This document shows, piece by piece, positions 5,236 to 13,165 of a stretch of 64,000 nucleotides of DNA. The notes beneath the pieces were generated by a model that was not told where the DNA came from, did no database searches, and worked only from the letters and a program-made list of their open reading frames with translations. The translations under genes were made by a program, and so were the position numbers. This DNA is from an uncultured delta proteobacterium (GTDB taxonomy: Bacteria > Myxococcota > Myxococcia > SLRQ01), in NCBI GenBank assembly GCA_963727485.1, contig CAVSGM010000002.1, forward strand, positions 1,823,779-1,887,778, in the 5' to 3' direction. The stretch's first letter is position 1. The number at the start of each line of letters is the position of its first letter.

Positions 5236-6100
5236 TCAGGGTCCGTCGGCGCCGGCGAGGTAGTCGGGGTAGCGCAGCTCGACGCCGAAGACCGCCTTGG
5301 CCTTGGCGTTCGTCACCCGCTTGGAGCCCAGGAGCGTCGGCGACGGGGCCTCGCTGGCCGGGGCCACCTCCGGCGCCGGGAGCCCGAGGCGCCCGGCGAG
5401 GAAGGTCGCCACCTCCCGGAGGGACGCGGGCCGGTCGTCGGCGAGGTTGTAGATCCCCGAGGCGTCGGGGTCGGCGGCGAGGGCGCGGGCGAGGGTGGCG
5501 ACGATGTCGTCGACGTGGATCCGGTTGAGGAGGTTCTCGCCCCCGCCAAAGAGACGCACCCGGCCGGCGCGCAGGCGCCCCTCGAGCCCCCGGCCCCGGC
5601 CGTAGATCGCCGCCAGCCGCAGGACGATGCCGGTGGCCCCGAGGCTGCGCGCCCCCTCGAGGAACACGGTCTCCGCGTCGAGGCGGGCGGCGGCGCGATC
5701 GGGCCCGGGGTCCACGGGGCTCTCCTCGGTGACCTCGCCGCCGTCGCGCTCGGCGTAGACCCCGGTGGTGGACAGGTAGATGAGCGCCCGGGGCGCGGCG
5801 GCCGGCGACGACGTCGAGGACCGCCCGGGCCCCGGCGTCCCGGCGCGGGTCCGGGCCCACCGGGGGCACGGTGTGCACCACCACCGCCCCCTCGGGGCAG
5901 ATATCGCCGAGGCCCTCCGTCTCGGGAAGTGCACACACCGCGACCTCGACGCCCCGACCGGCGAGCTCCTCGGCCCGGGCGGGATCGCGGAGGGTGCCAG
6001 AGACGGCGATCCCGTGGCCCCGGAGGGTGCGCGCCAGGTGGGCGCCCACGTGGCCGAGACCGACGACGACGACGGGCGGGGGCGCGGTGGCATCGGGCAT
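5236..6100 (-). CDS. NAD-dependent epimerase/dehydratase (atypical SDR, YeeZ-like); frameshift near 5790
   Basis: N-terminal VVVGLGHVG in ORF 5108..6253 continues as IYLSTTGVY...LRLAAIYGRGR...NRIHVDD...YNLADD...YPDY in ORF 5236..6441. Confidence 0.85.
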
Positions 6101-6618: not shown

Positions 6619-6648
6619 TTTACAGTCAGACTGTGAATTCTCTACACT
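6619..6648 (+). promoter_or_regulatory. putative sigma70 promoter with overlapping palindromic operator
   Basis: TTTACA (6619-6624), 18-bp spacer, TACACT (6643-6648); perfect inverted repeat ACAGTC-A-GACTGT at 6622-6634; locally AT-rich. Confidence 0.55.
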
Positions 6649-6690
6649 GACGGACGTCCTCGCCGGGGAGACACGCCAGGACCCCGACCC

Positions 6691-7131
6691 TTGACCGACG
6701 ACCCCTCCGTACCCGAGAGCCCCCCCGCCGAGCCCACCTCGGGCCGGCGACGATTTCTCCGGGAGGGCGCGGGGATGCTGGCCCTCGGGGCCCTCGCCGT
6801 GGCGCCCGGCGGCCGCGACCGCGCCCTCGACGCCCTCCGGGGCCGGGTTCGCACCGTGCGCCTGGGCAGCGCCCGGCCCCACCCGGCGCCCGGTGTCAGC
6901 GCCCGGCGCGCCGGTGACGAGCTGGTGGTCTCCATCCCCGGCGCCGATCCCGGCGTCGCCCTCAACGAGACCGCCGCCCAGGTGTTCCTCGCCTGCGACG
7001 GCCGGCGCACCGTCGACGCCATCGCCGCCTCGCTCTGTCGGCGCTACCGCGTGTCGCCGGCGCGGGCCCGCCGCGACGCGGGGGCGGTGGTCTCGGCGCT
7101 GACGCGCGCCGGGTGCCTCGTCCTCGGCTGA
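6691..7131 (+). CDS. PqqD/RRE family protein with N-terminal twin-arginine (Tat-like) signal
   Basis: SGRRRFLREGAGMLALGALAV followed by the PqqD pattern LNETAAQVFLACDGRRTVDAIAASLCRRYRVS...DAGAVVSALTRAGCL. Confidence 0.8.
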   Translation: MTDDPSVPESPPAEPTSGRRRFLREGAGMLALGALAVAPGGRDRALDALRGRVRTVRLGSARPHPAPGVSARRAGDELVVSIPGADPGVALNETAAQVFLACDGRRTVDAIAASLCRRYRVSPARARRDAGAVVSALTRAGCLVLG

Positions 7132-7158
7132 TCCCCGGCGTCCCCGCTCCGGGGCCGC

Positions 7159-7369
7159 TCAGGGCCGGCTGGGGGCGCAGGGTCCCGACGGGCGAGCAGA
7201 TCTGGGGGTGGCAGGCGTAGGGTCCGCAGCTCGAGGACGGCGCCGCCCGGGGGATGGGGATTTTGATCGACCGGATCCGAGGGCGGACGTACTTCTTGAC
7301 CCCGTCGACGATCGCCTCCTCGGCGGCCTCCAGGGCCTCGTCCTCGATGTCGTTGCGGTCGTCGCTCAT
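7159..7369 (-). CDS. putative RiPP precursor peptide (69 aa after removing one G at 7180-7182)
   Basis: Acidic leader, KKYVRPRI motif, core SSSCGPYACHPQICSPVGT(CAPSRP*). As sequenced the ORF runs to 6962 and overlaps the convergent PqqD gene; a 1-nt correction gives TGA at 7159-7161 and a fourth CxP unit. Confidence 0.65.
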
Positions 7370-7375
7370 GGTCCG

Positions 7376-9085
7376 CTACCAGGCGGTGGACCAGGTCAGG
7401 CGCCAGCCCGCCGGGAACCGCTCGAGCCAGTACTCTACCACCTGCGTGGTCTCCCGGTCGCCCTGGTCGGCGGTGCGCAGGGCGTGGACCAGGACCTCGG
7501 GGTAGTTGCGGGTGCCGGTGGTGTAGACCGAGAGGATCCGGGTGTGGACGGTGGCGTCGGTGTCGGTCCGGCCGGTGGCGATCCGGGCCCGGGCGGCGTC
7601 GTCGAGGGCGTCGCAGTAGAAGCCGTCCATGGTCGCCCGGTAGGCCTCCGGGTCCCGGGCGTTCACCGCGGCGTCGGCGTCGTGGATCACCCGGGCGATG
7701 GCCGCGCGGTCGGCGTCGGGGACCGGGGTGGGCGGCTGGGAGAGGTAGGGGGCCAGGGCGTCCTTCCAGGCGGCGCGGAAGGCGTCGAGGCCCTCCCCGA
7801 CCACGTGCTGGAGCAGGTGGTCCATCGCCCGGGCCAGGGAGGGGCCGTCGCTGACCTGGTCGCCGAGGGTGTCGACCAGGGTCCACCCGTGCCAGGTCAC
7901 CGCGGCGGCGCGCCACAGCTCCAGGAGCTTCGCCCGGCCGTAGCGGGAGACGAAGAGGCTCACGAACGAGCCGTCCCGACCGTAGTTGCGGCCATAGACG
8001 TCGCTGTCCTCGAAACCGTAGCGGTAGGTCGCGTTCTCCTCGCCGGCGACCAGGTCGTCGGCGTAGGCCTGGTGGCGGTCCCGGCCCGAGCCGTCGAGGT
8101 AGACCGCGAGCCCCTCGTCGAGAAACGGCAGGTGGTCGGTCTTCCCGTCGACGGCGGTGGCGAGGACGTGGGTGAGCTCGTGGCCGAAGTGGTGGCGCTC
8201 GTAGCTGTCGTCGCCTTGGAGGTAGAGGACGTCGACCTCGTGCTTCCAGGGGAAGGCCTGGCCCACGCTGTAGCCGTGGGCGAAGGCGGCCATGCGGTTG
8301 GGCGAGAGGACCACGGTGATCCGCGGGCGGGTGGTCAGGCCCAGGAACTCGCTGATGCGGTCGTAGGCCCGCTGGCGATCCTGGAAGATGGGGTCGAGGT
8401 CGGCGGCGGCGGCGGTGCCCGGGAGGTAGCGCAGGTCGAAGGGGCCGCGCTCGGTGTCCTGGTAGGCGACGCCCGCGTAGGTGGGGACGTCGGCGCAGAG
8501 GACCGGCGCGATCGGGCCGCCCGCGTCGCCGCCGGCGCCGGGGCCGTTGTCGTTGCCCGCGGTGCCGGGGCCGTTGTCGCTGCCCGCGGCCCCCTGGCCG
8601 TTGCCGTTGCCGTTGCCGAGGCCGCTGTCCGGGCCGGCGCCGGTGCCGCCGGTGTCGCCGTTGCCTCCGGCGGTGCCGTTGCCTCCGGCGGTGCCGTTGC
8701 CTCCGGCGGTGCCGCCCGCGCTGCCGCTGGCGCTCCCGCCCTGGTTGGCGCTTCCGTCGTCCTCGCTGCCGGTGCGCGGCCCGGCGCCCGGGACGCCGTC
8801 GAGGCCTCGAAGGTGCAGGCCCCCCGGGAGGCCCGGACGGACGGCGCGCCCAGGCCGGGTCCGCCAGCCGGGGAGGGCGCCGGGGCGGGTGGCCAGGGAC
8901 GCCACCGGGACGCGCAGCGCGCTCGGCGTCGCCACCGGGCGGGTCGCCGCCGCCGGGGCGCCGCCGGCCGTCGCCGGGCTGGCGGCGGTCGTGGTCGGGG
9001 GCGCATCGGTGGGCGGCGCCGCCGGGGCGGTGCAGGCGGCGGCGAGGAGGACGAAGGCGAGGGACGGGGGGGCGAGTCGGCGCAT
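7376..9085 (-). CDS. lipoprotein zinc metallopeptidase (gluzincin/peptidase MA-like) with Gly/Asn-rich linker
   Basis: Lipobox LLAAAC; HFGHELTHVL followed by FLDEGLAVY (HExxH...E); stop 6 bp upstream of the precursor start. Confidence 0.75.
   Translation of the reverse strand: MRRLAPPSLAFVLLAAACTAPAAPPTDAPPTTTAASPATAGGAPAAATRPVATPSALRVPVASLATRPGALPGWRTRPGRAVRPGLPGGLHLRGLDGVPGAGPRTGSEDDGSANQGGSASGSAGGTAGGNGTAGGNGTAGGNGDTGGTGAGPDSGLGNGNGNGQGAAGSDNGPGTAGNDNGPGAGGDAGGPIAPVLCADVPTYAGVAYQDTERGPFDLRYLPGTAAAADLDPIFQDRQRAYDRISEFLGLTTRPRITVVLSPNRMAAFAHGYSVGQAFPWKHEVDVLYLQGDDSYERHHFGHELTHVLATAVDGKTDHLPFLDEGLAVYLDGSGRDRHQAYADDLVAGEENATYRYGFEDSDVYGRNYGRDGSFVSLFVSRYGRAKLLELWRAAAVTWHGWTLVDTLGDQVSDGPSLARAMDHLLQHVVGEGLDAFRAAWKDALAPYLSQPPTPVPDADRAAIARVIHDADAAVNARDPEAYRATMDGFYCDALDDAARARIATGRTDTDATVHTRILSVYTTGTRNYPEVLVHALRTADQGDRETTQVVEYWLERFPAGWRLTWSTAW
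8657..8714. repeat. 18-bp tandem repeat (about 3.2 copies) encoding TAGGNG
   Basis: GCCGTTGCCTCCGGCGGT x3 read directly. Confidence 0.9.
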
Positions 9086-9261
9086 GCCCCGGGTAAGAGC
9101 AGCGGCCGTGCCACCGGGCCCGAACCGGGAAGCGCCAATGGTTCCGAGGATCTGGGGGCTGCGCGGGTGAGGATTGCCCGGGTCGGCGGGGCCGGGCGGG
9201 TCACCTGGCACCCGGCCCGCGGGGACCCGGGCCCCGCCCCGCCGTGCTATGCTCCGTGCGG

Positions 9262-11524
9262 ATGGCCCGGGCTTCCCTTCCCATCCTCGGCACGGGGGCG
9301 GTGGCACCAGCGGCGCCCCGGCCCCTGCGGTTCGCCTGGCTGGAGCTGACCCACCGCTGCAACCTCCAGTGCGACCAGTGCTACACCAACAGCACTCCCC
9401 GCACGCCCCTGGGGAGCCTGCCCACCGAGCGCTGGCACCGCCTCCTCGAGGAGATCGTCGCCGCCGGGGGGAAGACGGTGCAGTTCACCGGCGGTGAGGC
9501 CACCACCCACCCGGACCTGGTCCCGCTCCTCGAGCACGCCGCCGGGCTCGGCCTCGCCGTCGAGCTGTTCACCAACGCCACCCGCCTCGACGACGCCCTG
9601 ATTCGAGCGCCTCGCCACCCTCGGGGTGGCGGTGGCCACCTCGCTGCACAGCCACGAGGCGGCGGCCCACGACGCCATCACCCGGACCCCCGGGAGCCAC
9701 GCCCTCACCGTCGACGCCATCCGCAGGCTGGTCGCCCGGGGGATCGAGGTCCGGGTCGCCGGGGTGCTCATGGCCGGCAACGCCGACCACGGCCCGGCCA
9801 CCGAGGCCCTCATCCGGCGCCTCGGCGTCCTCACCCCGTTCAAGACCGACCCGGTGCGCCCCACCGGCCGGGGGCGCAAGGCCGAGTCCCCGGCCGAGGT
9901 GGCCAGCTGCACCGTGTGCGACGACGGGACCTTCCAGGCGATGCACACCGATCCCGCGGGCCCGGCGCCGTCGACCTGCTGGGACGGGCGCATCGCCGTG
10001 AGCCCCCGGGGCGAGGTCTACCCCTGCATCTTCAGCCGCGGGGCGAAGGTGGGCAGCGTCGCCGACACCCCGCTCCCCCAGGTCCTCGCCCGCGGGCCCC
10101 TCGCCGGGCTCTGGGCCCTGACCACCGACGACGTCCCCGAGTGCCGGGACTGCGACCGGAAGGGCGTGTGCTTCGACTGCCGGGCCCTGCCCCTCACCGC
10201 CCTCGGCGACGTCACCGCCAAGAACCCCCGGTGCGACTACGTGCCCCCGGCCAGGCGCCCCAGGCGCCCGCGCCCCGAGGCGGCGAGGGTGCGCCCGGGT
10301 CTCCTGGGCCGGGACCTGGCCGGCGAGCGGCTCCTGGTCGACGCCGCCACCGCCCGGCTCCACCGCCTCGACGCCGGGGCCGCGGCGATCCTCGACGCCC
10401 TGGCCGCCGGCGCGTCGGAGGCCGCCCTCGCCGCGGGCCTCACCCGGCGCTTCGGCCTCGCCCCGGACGAGGCGGCCTCGGAGATCGCCACCGTCGCCGA
10501 CGGCCTCTGGGACGCGGGGCTCCTGGTGGACCCCGCGGGCCGGGACGTCACCGGGGACCGGGTCCTCGCCGGCGTCGCCCCGCCACCGGTGCCCGACGCC
10601 CTGGGCCTGGCCGCCGGCGCCGCGGACCCGGCGGCCGGGCGCGCCGTCGCGGACACCCCCGCCGCCGAGGTCCCCCGGCGCGCTCTCCTCGGCCTCCTCG
10701 GGCGCACCGTGGCCCTCGCCGCCGACGCCGCCGCCTGGGCCGAGCTCGAGGCCCTGCTGGCCCCCCTGGCCGCCGACCCCGGGGCCACCCCCGAGGCCAC
10801 CATCTCGGTGGTCTCCCGCCGCTCCGCCCCCCACCTCGGGGCGCTCCACCACGTCCTGGTCGACGGCCGGCAGGTCCGGGCGGTGCGGACCCCCGGCGCC
10901 CTGCGCTCGGCGGTCGAGGAGGTGCTGTGCACCCTCGCCGCCGAGGGCCAGGGCGACCTGCGCCTCCACGCGGCGGTCCTGGTGGGCCCCGCCGGGGCGG
11001 TGCTCATCCCCGGGGCCTCTGGGGCGGGCAAGAGCCTGCTCGCCCTCGCCGGGGTCGCCGCGGGCCTCGGCTACGGCACCGACGAGGCGGCGCGGATCCC
11101 GCTGGTCGGCGAGGTGGTGGTCGACGCGCTCCCCAAGCCGGTGACCGTGAAGGCCGCGGGCCGGCCCTGGGTCCCCCCGGCGCTGACGGCCCGGTGGATC
11201 CCCCCGGACGTCGCCGACCCCGACGACTACGCCTGGGTGCCGCTGGTCGGCAGCGCCCCGGCGCCGGTGGTGGCGGTGGTCCTCCCGGATTGCTCCGGCG
11301 CCACCGAGGGCCTCGCCCCCTGCGAGGCCGGCGACGCCGCCGAGGCCCTCCTCGCCGGGGTCTTCAACCTCGGCGGGGCGGGGGTCGCCGCGGGCCTCGA
11401 GGCGGTGTGCCGCCTGGTCGAGGGCGCGGCCTGCCTCCGCCTCGACACCCGGGACCTCCCGGCCGCCGGGGCGCGCCTCGCCGAGCGCCTCGGCCAAGGC
11501 GCGGCCCGGGGCACCGGCACCTGA
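9262..11524 (+). CDS. radical SAM/SPASM enzyme fused to PqqD/RRE and HPr-kinase-like domains (one extra T at 9600-9604)
   Basis: CNLQCDQC at 9358-9381, TGGEA, FTNA; SPASM CWDG...GEVYPC...CRDCDRKGVCFDC...[23 protein letters not shown]...LTRRFGL...LWDAGLL; kinase LHAAV...GASGAGKS...GTDE. Confidence 0.85.
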
Positions 11525-11537
11525 GCTTCGCCGGGCG

Positions 11538-13165
<1,628 letters not shown>

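What the first reader, a model, noticed from the sequence alone, without database searches (positions are those of the whole stretch)
6619..11524. Candidate undescribed RiPP system: rSAM-RRE-kinase fusion, Tat-RRE, lipoprotein peptidase and CxP-repeat precursor
Seen: four adjacent genes between housekeeping neighbours (PilZ, pruA). They encode a PqqD-like protein with a twin-arginine N-terminus, a small Cys/Pro-rich peptide, a lipoprotein HExxH peptidase co-oriented 6 bp upstream of it, and a divergent radical SAM/SPASM enzyme with extra RRE and kinase domains. Established: RRE/PqqD domains bind RiPP leaders, SPASM enzymes crosslink peptides (sactipeptides, ranthipeptides), and HPr-kinase-like enzymes phosphorylate precursors in paeninodin-type lasso clusters. 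Inference: a crosslinked and phosphorylated peptide with extracytoplasmic leader processing. I do not recognise this combination from a characterised class. No transporter is present in the cluster.
Basis: partly seen in the sequence, partly recalled or inferred. Interest (0 to 1): 0.9.

Follow-up and report, generated by a model that had tools for sequence, protein, structure and literature searches.

The report
Cys-x-Pro peptide cluster with export-tagged chaperone
Four genes in an uncultured, probably myxobacterial genome encode a small cysteine-proline repeat peptide, a three-in-one enzyme that likely cross-links and phosphorylates it, and a peptide-binding helper carrying the export-signal-like tag that relatives keep on the peptide itself, so the helper may ferry the finished peptide out of the cell.

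Summary
The cluster is real. Two frameshifts (7187, 9602) are assembly errors by public runs, giving a 69-aa precursor (YxxPxI leader, four Cys-x-Pro units) and a 753-aa radical SAM/SPASM-RRE-HprK fusion. The layout recurs in 2 of 4 other genomes of the family. It is an offshoot of a wider unnamed family (precursor, rSAM, PqqD, HprK as separate genes; 22 loci in Myxococcota and Zetaproteobacteria) that this scan noted before on other DNA. New here: in the wider family the precursor carries a Tat-like signal (22 of 25) and the PqqD does not (0 of 26 rows). In this variant the precursors lack it (0 of 3) and the stand-alone RRE carries it (3 of 3, plus two database homologues; genome background 1.4%). 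Most likely the fusion installs Cys thioethers and phosphorylates Ser, and the RRE hitchhikes the precursor through Tat. None of this chemistry, binding or export is shown, and curated Tat HMMs did not hit. The lipoprotein M1-like peptidase is optional: absent in one relative, beside a cluster in 1 of 23 metagenome loci. No named family fits. New variant of a known kind; interest 0.7.

The parts
6619..6648 (+). Sigma-70-like promoter site upstream of the RRE gene (TTTACA-18-TACACT)
   Evidence: 2 sites found against a shuffle mean of 0.0; TTTACA also lies upstream of the G002 RRE. Consensus match only.
6691..7131 (+). Stand-alone RRE (PqqD family) with Tat-like N-terminus, 146 aa, TTG start
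   Evidence: PF05402 E 1.7e-12; AF2 model pLDDT 79-94 over residues 61-146, TM 0.87 by target to lasso B1-leader complex 6jx3; homologue P0182 has Met at the same start.
6742..6816 (+). Twin-arginine motif (GRRRFL) and hydrophobic region of the RRE
   Evidence: Passes a recalled TatFind-like rule, as do G002 and G003; P0182 and P0189 also have RRxFL plus 15-16 uncharged residues; TIGR01409 and Pfam Tat models did not hit.
7159..7369 (-). Precursor peptide, 69 aa once the extra base at 7187 is discounted; YxxPxI leader motif at 7274-7291; core with four Cys-x-Pro units at 7162-7228
   Evidence: orthologous peptides with 4 and 6 CxP in G002 and G003; third-position GC 0.95; no Pfam or NCBIfam family above cut-off.
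7376..9085 (-). Lipoprotein metallopeptidase, 569 aa: lipobox-like Cys18, Gly/Asn linker, M1-like gluzincin domain (HELTH at 8168-8182) and C-terminal NTF2-like domain; accessory
   Evidence: pLDDT 94; fold matches to M1 aminopeptidases and NTF2 domains, E about 1e-3. Coupled to the precursor in G000 (6 bp) and G002 (ATGA overlap); not found in G003.
9262..11524 (+). Fused maturase, 753 aa once the extra base at 9602 is discounted: radical SAM (CxxxCxxC 9358-9381), full SPASM (about 9983-10246), RRE (about 10331-10525), HprK-like kinase (about 10934-11155 and on)
   Evidence: same fusion in G002, G003 and P0016.

Best explanation
This is a conserved peptide-maturation cassette in which the fused radical SAM-RRE-kinase likely grips the precursor's YxxPxI leader, likely cross-links the four Cys-x-Pro cysteines as thioethers and phosphorylates a serine, after which the stand-alone RRE, which carries a twin-arginine-like signal, would take the leader and carry the folded complex through the Tat translocase. 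Where present, the lipoprotein M1-like peptidase would then cut the leader outside the cytoplasm, replacing the signal-peptidase site that relatives carry on the precursor. Shown: genes, domains, motifs, synteny, and the complementary placing of the Tat-like signal. Inferred, with my odds: the peptide is the enzyme's substrate (0.85), thioether chemistry (0.5), phosphorylation (0.55), Tat hitchhiking on the RRE (0.4), leader cleavage by this peptidase (0.45).
For: Synteny PilZ, RRE, convergent precursor, divergent fusion in G002 and G003. The fused domains stand in the same order as the separate genes rSAM, PqqD, HprK in relatives. Among the 22 closest loci: kinase 20, PqqD 21, Cys-rich precursor with RR..YxxP leader 19; among the 58 more distant rSAM loci of the same call no such precursor. 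G443 is an intermediate: Tat-leader precursor, rSAM-RRE fusion, separate kinase. Tat-like rule: unfused-type precursors 22 of 25, fused-type precursors 0 of 3, fused-type stand-alone RREs 3 of 3, unfused PqqDs 0 of 26 rows, genome background 38 of 2756. TatC is in G000 and in 5 of 5 cluster genomes tested. YxxPx[LVIFA] is the motif bound by discrete lasso/LPP RREs, and an HprK kinase phosphorylates a core Ser in LPP (PMC13381572). Kinase His, Walker A and acidic motifs intact in 8 of 8 checked. Ser precedes the first CxP Cys in 16 of 28 precursors against 18 of 91 later units. Best PDB match is the sactisynthase SkfB; the six active-site-proximal positions, mapped by eye, read Y,T,F,S,I,F against Y,T,F,S,Q,L in SkfB and Y,T,I,S,K,L in StsB. 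Tat hitchhiking of partner subunits is established (PMC4273604 abstract start; PMC13673990 passages). M1 proteases remove RiPP leaders (AplP; PMC10885120 passages).
Against: No curated Tat model hit any of the three RREs, and among 20 unfused-type precursors scanned only weak, under-cut-off Tat-type hits appeared (5 of 20); the rule I used is recalled, not a tool. Only three fused-type loci have context, and they are kin. A database gene call starts the G003 RRE after the RR motif (P0183). The RRE helix is flanked by arginines on both sides and could be a plain or uncleaved anchor. A profile of 19 unfused-type precursors did not place the window's (frameshifted) frame among the top 10 of 67,692 frames of its genome, although it ranked the G002 and G003 precursors first in their loci, so homology of the two precursor types is only weakly shown by sequence. 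Y,T,F,S are common in SPASM enzymes, so the chemistry call is soft. Ser directly precedes the first Cys in only 1 of 3 fused-type precursors. The peptidase is usually found away from such clusters.
Confidence: 0.45

Rival explanations
1. Same RiPP maturation, but the RRE's N-terminal helix is a membrane anchor that tethers a cytoplasm-facing RRE, localising the precursor at the membrane; export, if any, uses an unlinked transporter.
For: No Tat HMM hit; many Arg follow the helix; no clear signal-peptidase site in the window's RRE.
Against: RRxFL/RRxLL is kept at the n/h boundary in 5 of 5 long RREs down to 34-38% identity, and appears on the RRE exactly where the precursor lacks it.
Confidence: 0.2
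2. The Tat-RRE is exported alone (cleaved, or anchored like a Rieske protein) and acts outside as receptor or presenter that hands the leader to the lipoprotein peptidase, or as a self-protection binder; the peptide leaves by another route.
For: Uncleaved Tat anchors exist (class III substrates; PMC13673990); the RRE gene has its own promoter-like site and is transcribed against the precursor; 139-147-aa PqqD clusters resembling it occur in other phyla (score 0.94), so it may be a recruited module.
Against: No alternative exporter in the cluster; the precursor's loss of its h-region is then unexplained.
Confidence: 0.15
3. The radical SAM enzyme does something other than S-C crosslinking (epimerisation, C-C bond, backbone or Pro modification), and the cysteines stay free for disulfides or metal binding after export. 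This concerns chemistry only and is compatible with either export route.
For: Positions 5-6 of the proximity profile (I,F) match neither SkfB, StsB nor CteB; unfused relatives have a reduced SPASM domain with the same CxP cores; no maturase equivalog reaches its cut-off.
Against: Regularly spaced cysteines (5 apart in 43 of 91 intervals) beside a SPASM enzyme whose best structural relative is SkfB.
Confidence: 0.4
4. The peptidase is a passenger gained beside the precursor in the G000/G002 lineage and has a general periplasmic role. This concerns the peptidase only.
For: Not found in G003; 22 of 23 metagenome loci lack an adjacent rSAM, several beside signalling genes; in 3 of 22 unfused-type genomes it is present, but 3 of its 4 copies there have no cluster gene in the fetched flanks.
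Against: Translational coupling to the precursor in two genera; in the class it was found in 2 of 368 genomes, both cluster carriers; an independent unfused cluster (L016) also has it next door and L015 has a CxP precursor about 10 kb away.
Confidence: 0.4
5. Not a RiPP: the peptide is an unmodified small metal-binding protein and the enzyme acts on something else.
For: Cys/Pro-rich repeats resemble generic low-complexity proteins (weak keratin-type Pfam hits).
Against: YxxP leader, two RREs, and linkage to this rSAM clade in 19 of 22 loci against 0 of 58.
Confidence: 0.06

Closest known systems
Sactisynthases SkfB (PDB 6efn) and StsB (NF045574; PMC10288494)
   Same: rSAM with SPASM/twitch domain plus RRE and a Cys-rich precursor; best PDB match; 4 of 6 proximity positions shared with SkfB, 3 of 6 with StsB by eye.
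   Different: Far under the StsB cut-off (53.5 against 625 bits on the N-terminal piece); C-terminal RRE and kinase fused; CxP repeats rather than a Cys/Gly hairpin; Tat-like RRE; linkage untested.
Linear polyphosphorylated peptides (LPP) and paeninodin-type lasso tailoring (PMC13381572)
   Same: YxxP leader, discrete RRE, HprK-like kinase; NTP_transf_5 in 9 of 22 unfused relatives.
   Different: The LPP paper's text has no radical SAM (0 occurrences); LPP uses an SpI peptidase and an MsbA-like exporter; here no NTP transferase, no ABC exporter, no lasso cyclase.
SynChlorMet cassette (TIGR04248-04252)
   Same: PqqD, HprK-like protein, SPASM rSAM and Cys-repeat precursor (cassette composition as given in earlier scan notes).
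   Different: One rSAM, not two; all Scm models far under cut-off or absent; CxP rather than CxxG repeats.
HPr-rel-A cassette (TIGR04352, TIGR04353)
   Same: Best kinase match (E 1.1e-9) and weak PqqD_rel_X match.
   Different: 37.9 against 200 bits and 21.1 against 35 bits; carries an rSAM and a Cys-repeat precursor.
Tat hitchhiker co-translocation (hydrogenase, PaoABC; PMC4273604, PMC13673990)
   Same: A signal-less partner would cross with a signal-bearing folded carrier.
   Different: Known cargoes are enzyme subunits; I found no RiPP precursor-RRE case in the searches listed.
AplP-type M1 leader peptidases (PMC10885120)
   Same: Zn gluzincin fold with HExxH..E; leader removal precedent.
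   Different: Here a small secreted lipoprotein with an NTF2-like domain; no sequence match to any PDB chain.

Membership tests
RRE-dependent rSAM/SPASM RiPP system | rSAM with CxxxCxxC and SPASM cysteines | tested here: met
   Pfam PF04055 and PF13186 over cut-off; CWxG, PC and CxxC..CxxC motifs in 4 of 4 fused enzymes.
RRE-dependent rSAM/SPASM RiPP system | RRE domain and linked small precursor with RRE-type leader motif | tested here: met
   PF05402 twice; RRE fold; YxxP invariant in 14 of 14 aligned precursors.
RRE-dependent rSAM/SPASM RiPP system | Enzyme modifies the peptide | not testable with these tools
   Needs co-expression and MS.
Sactipeptide / ranthipeptide | Cys S to C-alpha or C-beta/gamma thioether | not testable with these tools
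   Chemistry only.
Sactipeptide / ranthipeptide | Sactisynthase-like catalytic-proximity residues | tested here: inconclusive
   Y,T,F,S,I,F mapped by eye: 4 of 6 with SkfB, 3 of 6 with StsB, 1 of 6 with CteB.
Sactipeptide / ranthipeptide | Score over the cut-off of a named maturase model | tested here: not met
   StsB, AlbA, SkfB models far under cut-off on the two pieces.
SynChlorMet | ScmA, ScmC, ScmD, ScmE, ScmF over cut-off; two rSAMs | tested here: not met
   ScmD 12.4/100, ScmE 29/400, ScmF 32/400 bits; no ScmA or ScmC hit listed; one rSAM.
LPP | SpI peptidase, NTP transferase, MsbA-like exporter, no rSAM | tested here: not met
   None of the three in the cluster; rSAM present.
HPr-rel-A cassette | TIGR04352 and TIGR04353 over cut-off | tested here: not met
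   37.9/200 and 21.1/35 bits.
Tat substrate (the stand-alone RRE) | Z-R-R-x-phi-phi motif followed by an uncharged h-region | tested here: met
   Consensus from PMC13673990; 3 of 3 orthologues and 2 database homologues.
Tat substrate (the stand-alone RRE) | Hit to curated Tat signal models | tested here: not met
   No TIGR01409 or Pfam Tat hit for the 3 RREs.
Tat substrate (the stand-alone RRE) | TatC-dependent export | not testable with these tools
   TatC is present; export needs an experiment.
M1/gluzincin leader peptidase | HExxH plus downstream Glu and gluzincin fold | tested here: met
   HExxH in 11 of 13 homologues; fold matches to IRAP and aminopeptidase N at E about 2e-3.
M1/gluzincin leader peptidase | Constant linkage to the precursor | tested here: not met
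   2 of 3 fused-type loci, 1 of 22 unfused loci.

The most novel reading that the evidence does not exclude
A RiPP pathway in which the leader-binding RRE is itself the export carrier: the Tat signal that relatives embed in the precursor's leader has been handed to a second RRE, which hitchhikes the cross-linked, phosphorylated Cys-x-Pro peptide through Tat to a dedicated lipoprotein peptidase, while a single rSAM-RRE-kinase polypeptide does all the cytoplasmic chemistry.
Probability: 0.35. Interest if true: 0.88.

Novelty: new variant of a known kind. Interest (0 to 1): 0.7.

Why it matters
RREs are known as cytoplasmic adaptors that deliver precursors to enzymes. An RRE that also exports its precursor would add a new step to RiPP biosynthesis and give a transporter-free way to secrete engineered peptides. 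The natural pair of architectures (signal on the precursor against signal on the RRE, with an intermediate in G443) makes Tat routing of RiPPs directly testable with a two-residue change. The 753-aa fusion with a 69-aa substrate is also the most compact entry to the chemistry of an unnamed, widespread Cys-x-Pro precursor family.

Tried and rejected
No RNA holder was listed for the region. Word-indexed homologue search with the G003 fusion returned only the window's own protein; the HMMER search of representatives was informative. The mixed rSAM alignment A2 had no conserved stretch for a locus scan, so the scan used four unfused enzymes (A3) and is biased to that type; it covered about 24 of 64 parts of the collection. 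One nucleotidyltransferase query was out of frame, so the 9 of 22 count rests on one query and is a floor. One search was circular (the alignment contained the query) and is not used; one search replaced it. Searches of the classes of G443 (1 of 18, itself) and G438 (0 of 22) found no more fused enzymes; the gene context of P0016, P0182 and P0189 could not be fetched. ESM Atlas on an unfused precursor gave unnamed or Cxxx-repeat-named clusters at 0.91-0.92 with few shared features, a lead only. No second precursor with this leader and two or more CxP was found in G000. Rejected: SynChlorMet, LPP, HPr-rel-A membership; a pseudogene reading (both shifts absent in public runs); the 135-aa reading of the peptide. 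Paper searches with no hit; one search listed 25 of 58 papers, none of the 25 with 'twin-arginine translocation'; one search gave one genome paper (listing only).
Full report
Observation. The window is G000:C2:1823779-1887778 of a 5.55-Mb, 73% GC assembly. Its class holds genomes whose records are titled Myxococcales (L067 and L069 have the contig lengths of the G352 and G356 loci), so I infer Myxococcota. Between PilZ and an aldehyde dehydrogenase lie four genes: a PqqD-family protein (6691-7131 +), a small peptide (ATG 7369 -), a lipoprotein peptidase (7376-9085 -) and a radical SAM gene in two frames (9262-11524 +). Contigs of public runs lack one base at 7187 (2 of 4 runs laid; the other two have no depth there) and one at 9602 (3 of 4; the fourth has no depth there). 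Each is one low-depth contig per run and one run may be the source sample, but the runs agree and the intact orthologues confirm the frames. The peptide is then 69 aa with four CxP units, ending in the frame shown, and the enzyme is 753 aa.

Conservation of this layout. Of 4 other genomes in the family, G002 and G003 carry the fusion at 48-53% identity. Both have PilZ, then the long RRE, then a convergent CxP peptide (4 and 6 units). G002 has the peptidase overlapping the peptide's start codon, though its cluster is split over three contigs; G003 has the peptide directly divergent from the rSAM with no peptidase. G004 has PilZ with no cluster gene in about 1.5 kb of flank. Among 1.84 billion representatives only three proteins match the fusion across its kinase end: the window's own, a frameshifted near-copy and P0016 (757 aa, 41%). 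The fusion is therefore rare: four independent sequences.

The wider family. Weaker hits in a search of 368 class genomes and the peptidase scan led to clusters with the same parts as separate genes: precursor, rSAM, PqqD, HprK, sometimes NTP_transf_5. A genome scan with four of these enzymes gave 80 loci. In the 22 best (Myxococcales, Polyangiaceae, Kofleriaceae, Zetaproteobacteria and others) I found a kinase in 20, a PqqD in 21, an NTP transferase in at least 9 and a Cys-rich precursor with an RR..YxxP leader in 19; two of the three misses are a short contig and a contig edge. Three of the 22 repeat loci already held. The 58 weaker rSAM loci gave no such precursor. The best hit of an unfused enzyme in G000 is the window's gene (E 1.9e-27, next 5.9e-18). 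In a FastTree of 76 of 129 collected domains (subsampled by id), fused enzymes form one clade (1.0), unfused enzymes with a reduced SPASM another (1.0), both apart from the more distant, largely acidobacterial set; the deeper branches are only moderately supported. G443 is intermediate, with a full SPASM fused to an RRE and a separate kinase. Earlier notes of this scan describe the unfused, Tat-leader type on other DNA (e1-3932191, e1-5131682, e1-8275246); I had reached it independently, and they are not independent evidence.

The signal swap. Unfused-type leaders read RRxLLK, a hydrophobic stretch that contains YxxP, and often AxA (17 of 25). With a TatFind-like rule written from recall, 22 of 25 pass (24 of 25 when one position is relaxed). 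The three fused-type precursors keep YxxPx[IL] 19-21 residues before the first Cys (21-22 in 11 of 25 unfused) but have a polar, basic stretch in place of the h-region (best 12-residue hydropathy 0.39-0.64 against 1.3-2.2) and fail the rule. Their stand-alone RREs pass it (3 of 3), no unfused PqqD does (0 of 26 rows, 24 distinct), and 38 of 2756 gene-like frames of G000 do. Two further long RREs keep RRxFL and the h-region (P0182, P0189; 2 of the 17 hits besides the G002 and G003 records). The general motif Z-R-R-x-phi-phi is from PMC13673990 (passages). Against this: curated Tat models hit none of the RREs and only weakly 5 of 20 unfused precursors; one database call starts the G003 RRE after the motif; the three loci are kin; and a profile of 19 unfused precursors missed the window's frameshifted frame in the top 10 of 67,692 while ranking the G002 and G003 peptides first in their own loci. 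Atlas clusters of 139-147-aa PqqD proteins in other phyla and scan note e1-6544238 (not checked) suggest that Tat-RREs are a reusable module, so 'recruited' may be truer than 'moved'.

Enzyme and peptidase. The fused enzymes have the full SPASM cysteine set and intact kinase motifs (8 of 8 kinases checked). The best solved relative is SkfB. Using the six landmark positions of PMC10288494 (abstract and sections 7-10 read; supplements not opened), mapped by eye, the enzyme shares 4 of 6 with SkfB, 3 of 6 with StsB and 1 of 6 with CteB, which leans to a sactionine but is not specific. In LPP an HprK kinase polyphosphorylates a core Ser behind a YxxP leader (PMC13381572: abstract, first quarter of Results, passages); Ser precedes the first CxP in 16 of 28 precursors here, including the window's, but in neither G002 nor G003. 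The stand-alone RRE folds like lasso B1 proteins bound to leaders, which is expected of any PqqD. The peptidase models confidently (pLDDT 94) as an M1-like gluzincin with an NTF2-like tail; 12 of 13 homologues have a loosely defined lipobox and 11 of 13 HExxH. It occurs in 2 of 368 class genomes, both with the cluster, in 3 of 22 unfused-type genomes, adjacent in one, and beside an rSAM in 1 of 23 metagenome loci, many of them short. It is linked more often than a rare gene should be, yet dispensable. M1 proteases do remove RiPP leaders (PMC10885120 passages).

Mechanism and comparison. I commit to: cytoplasmic thioether formation and Ser phosphorylation by the fusion, hand-over of the YxxP leader to the Tat-RRE, hitchhiker export, and leader removal by the lipoprotein where present (0.45 for the whole chain; 0.85 that this is a RiPP system acting on this peptide). 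It works like an RRE-dependent sactipeptide pathway with LPP-type tailoring, but fails membership of SynChlorMet, LPP and HPr-rel-A on tested features, and no Pfam or NCBIfam model covers the precursor. I found no description in the open library (searches; passages of PMC12710340 and PMC7470986, mention no Tat or HPr case; PMC12710340 notes Sec signal peptides on DUF2282 precursors). Subscription journals and the large supplementary datasets of those papers were not seen and may list these enzymes.

Verdict.

Noticed in passing
L065:9307-9549, L070:2069-2305, L072:3071-3340, L073:5762-6001: A subclade of unfused-type precursors has a lipobox-like QAGC/QGGC after the Tat-like h-region instead of AxA, so these may be lipid-anchored modified peptides.
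   Followed up: no
L075-L080, L082, L086, L087: Zetaproteobacterial members have longer, Lys-rich cores with up to 15 Cys and only 2-3 CxP; L076 has two precursors in tandem.
   Followed up: partly
L015:125-319 (-): CxP precursor about 10 kb from a peptidase homologue, followed by a gene cut by the locus edge that may be the rSAM.
   Followed up: partly
L163:9759-9977: In G438 the precursor lies after the kinase, followed by a convergent nucleotidyltransferase-like gene.
   Followed up: no
window 6622-6634: Short perfect inverted repeat (ACAGTC-A-GACTGT) inside the promoter-like site of the RRE gene; not seen in G002.
   Followed up: no
window about 8590-8730: Gly/Asn/Thr repeat linker in the peptidase; one contig of run X3 has 18 gap letters across this region, perhaps a repeat-number variant.
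   Followed up: no
window 5780-5840 and about 11990-12020: The neighbouring epimerase-like and aldehyde dehydrogenase genes also change frame, consistent with long-read assembly errors.
   Followed up: no
G000:C2 about 1516000-1563000: At least eight radical SAM-like hits cluster within about 47 kb.
   Followed up: no
G000:C3:627823-628065: Another PqqD-like hit elsewhere in the genome (E 2e-5).
   Followed up: no
L089-L146: Many of the distant, largely acidobacterial rSAM loci have kinase and PqqD genes upstream and an NTP transferase nearby, a separate HprK-PqqD-rSAM family without CxP precursors.
   Followed up: partly
L011:7085-8626 and 1960-2823: In G003 the fusion is followed by a second radical SAM gene and, further on, a NifH-like ATPase gene; unrelated to the G000 layout.
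   Followed up: no
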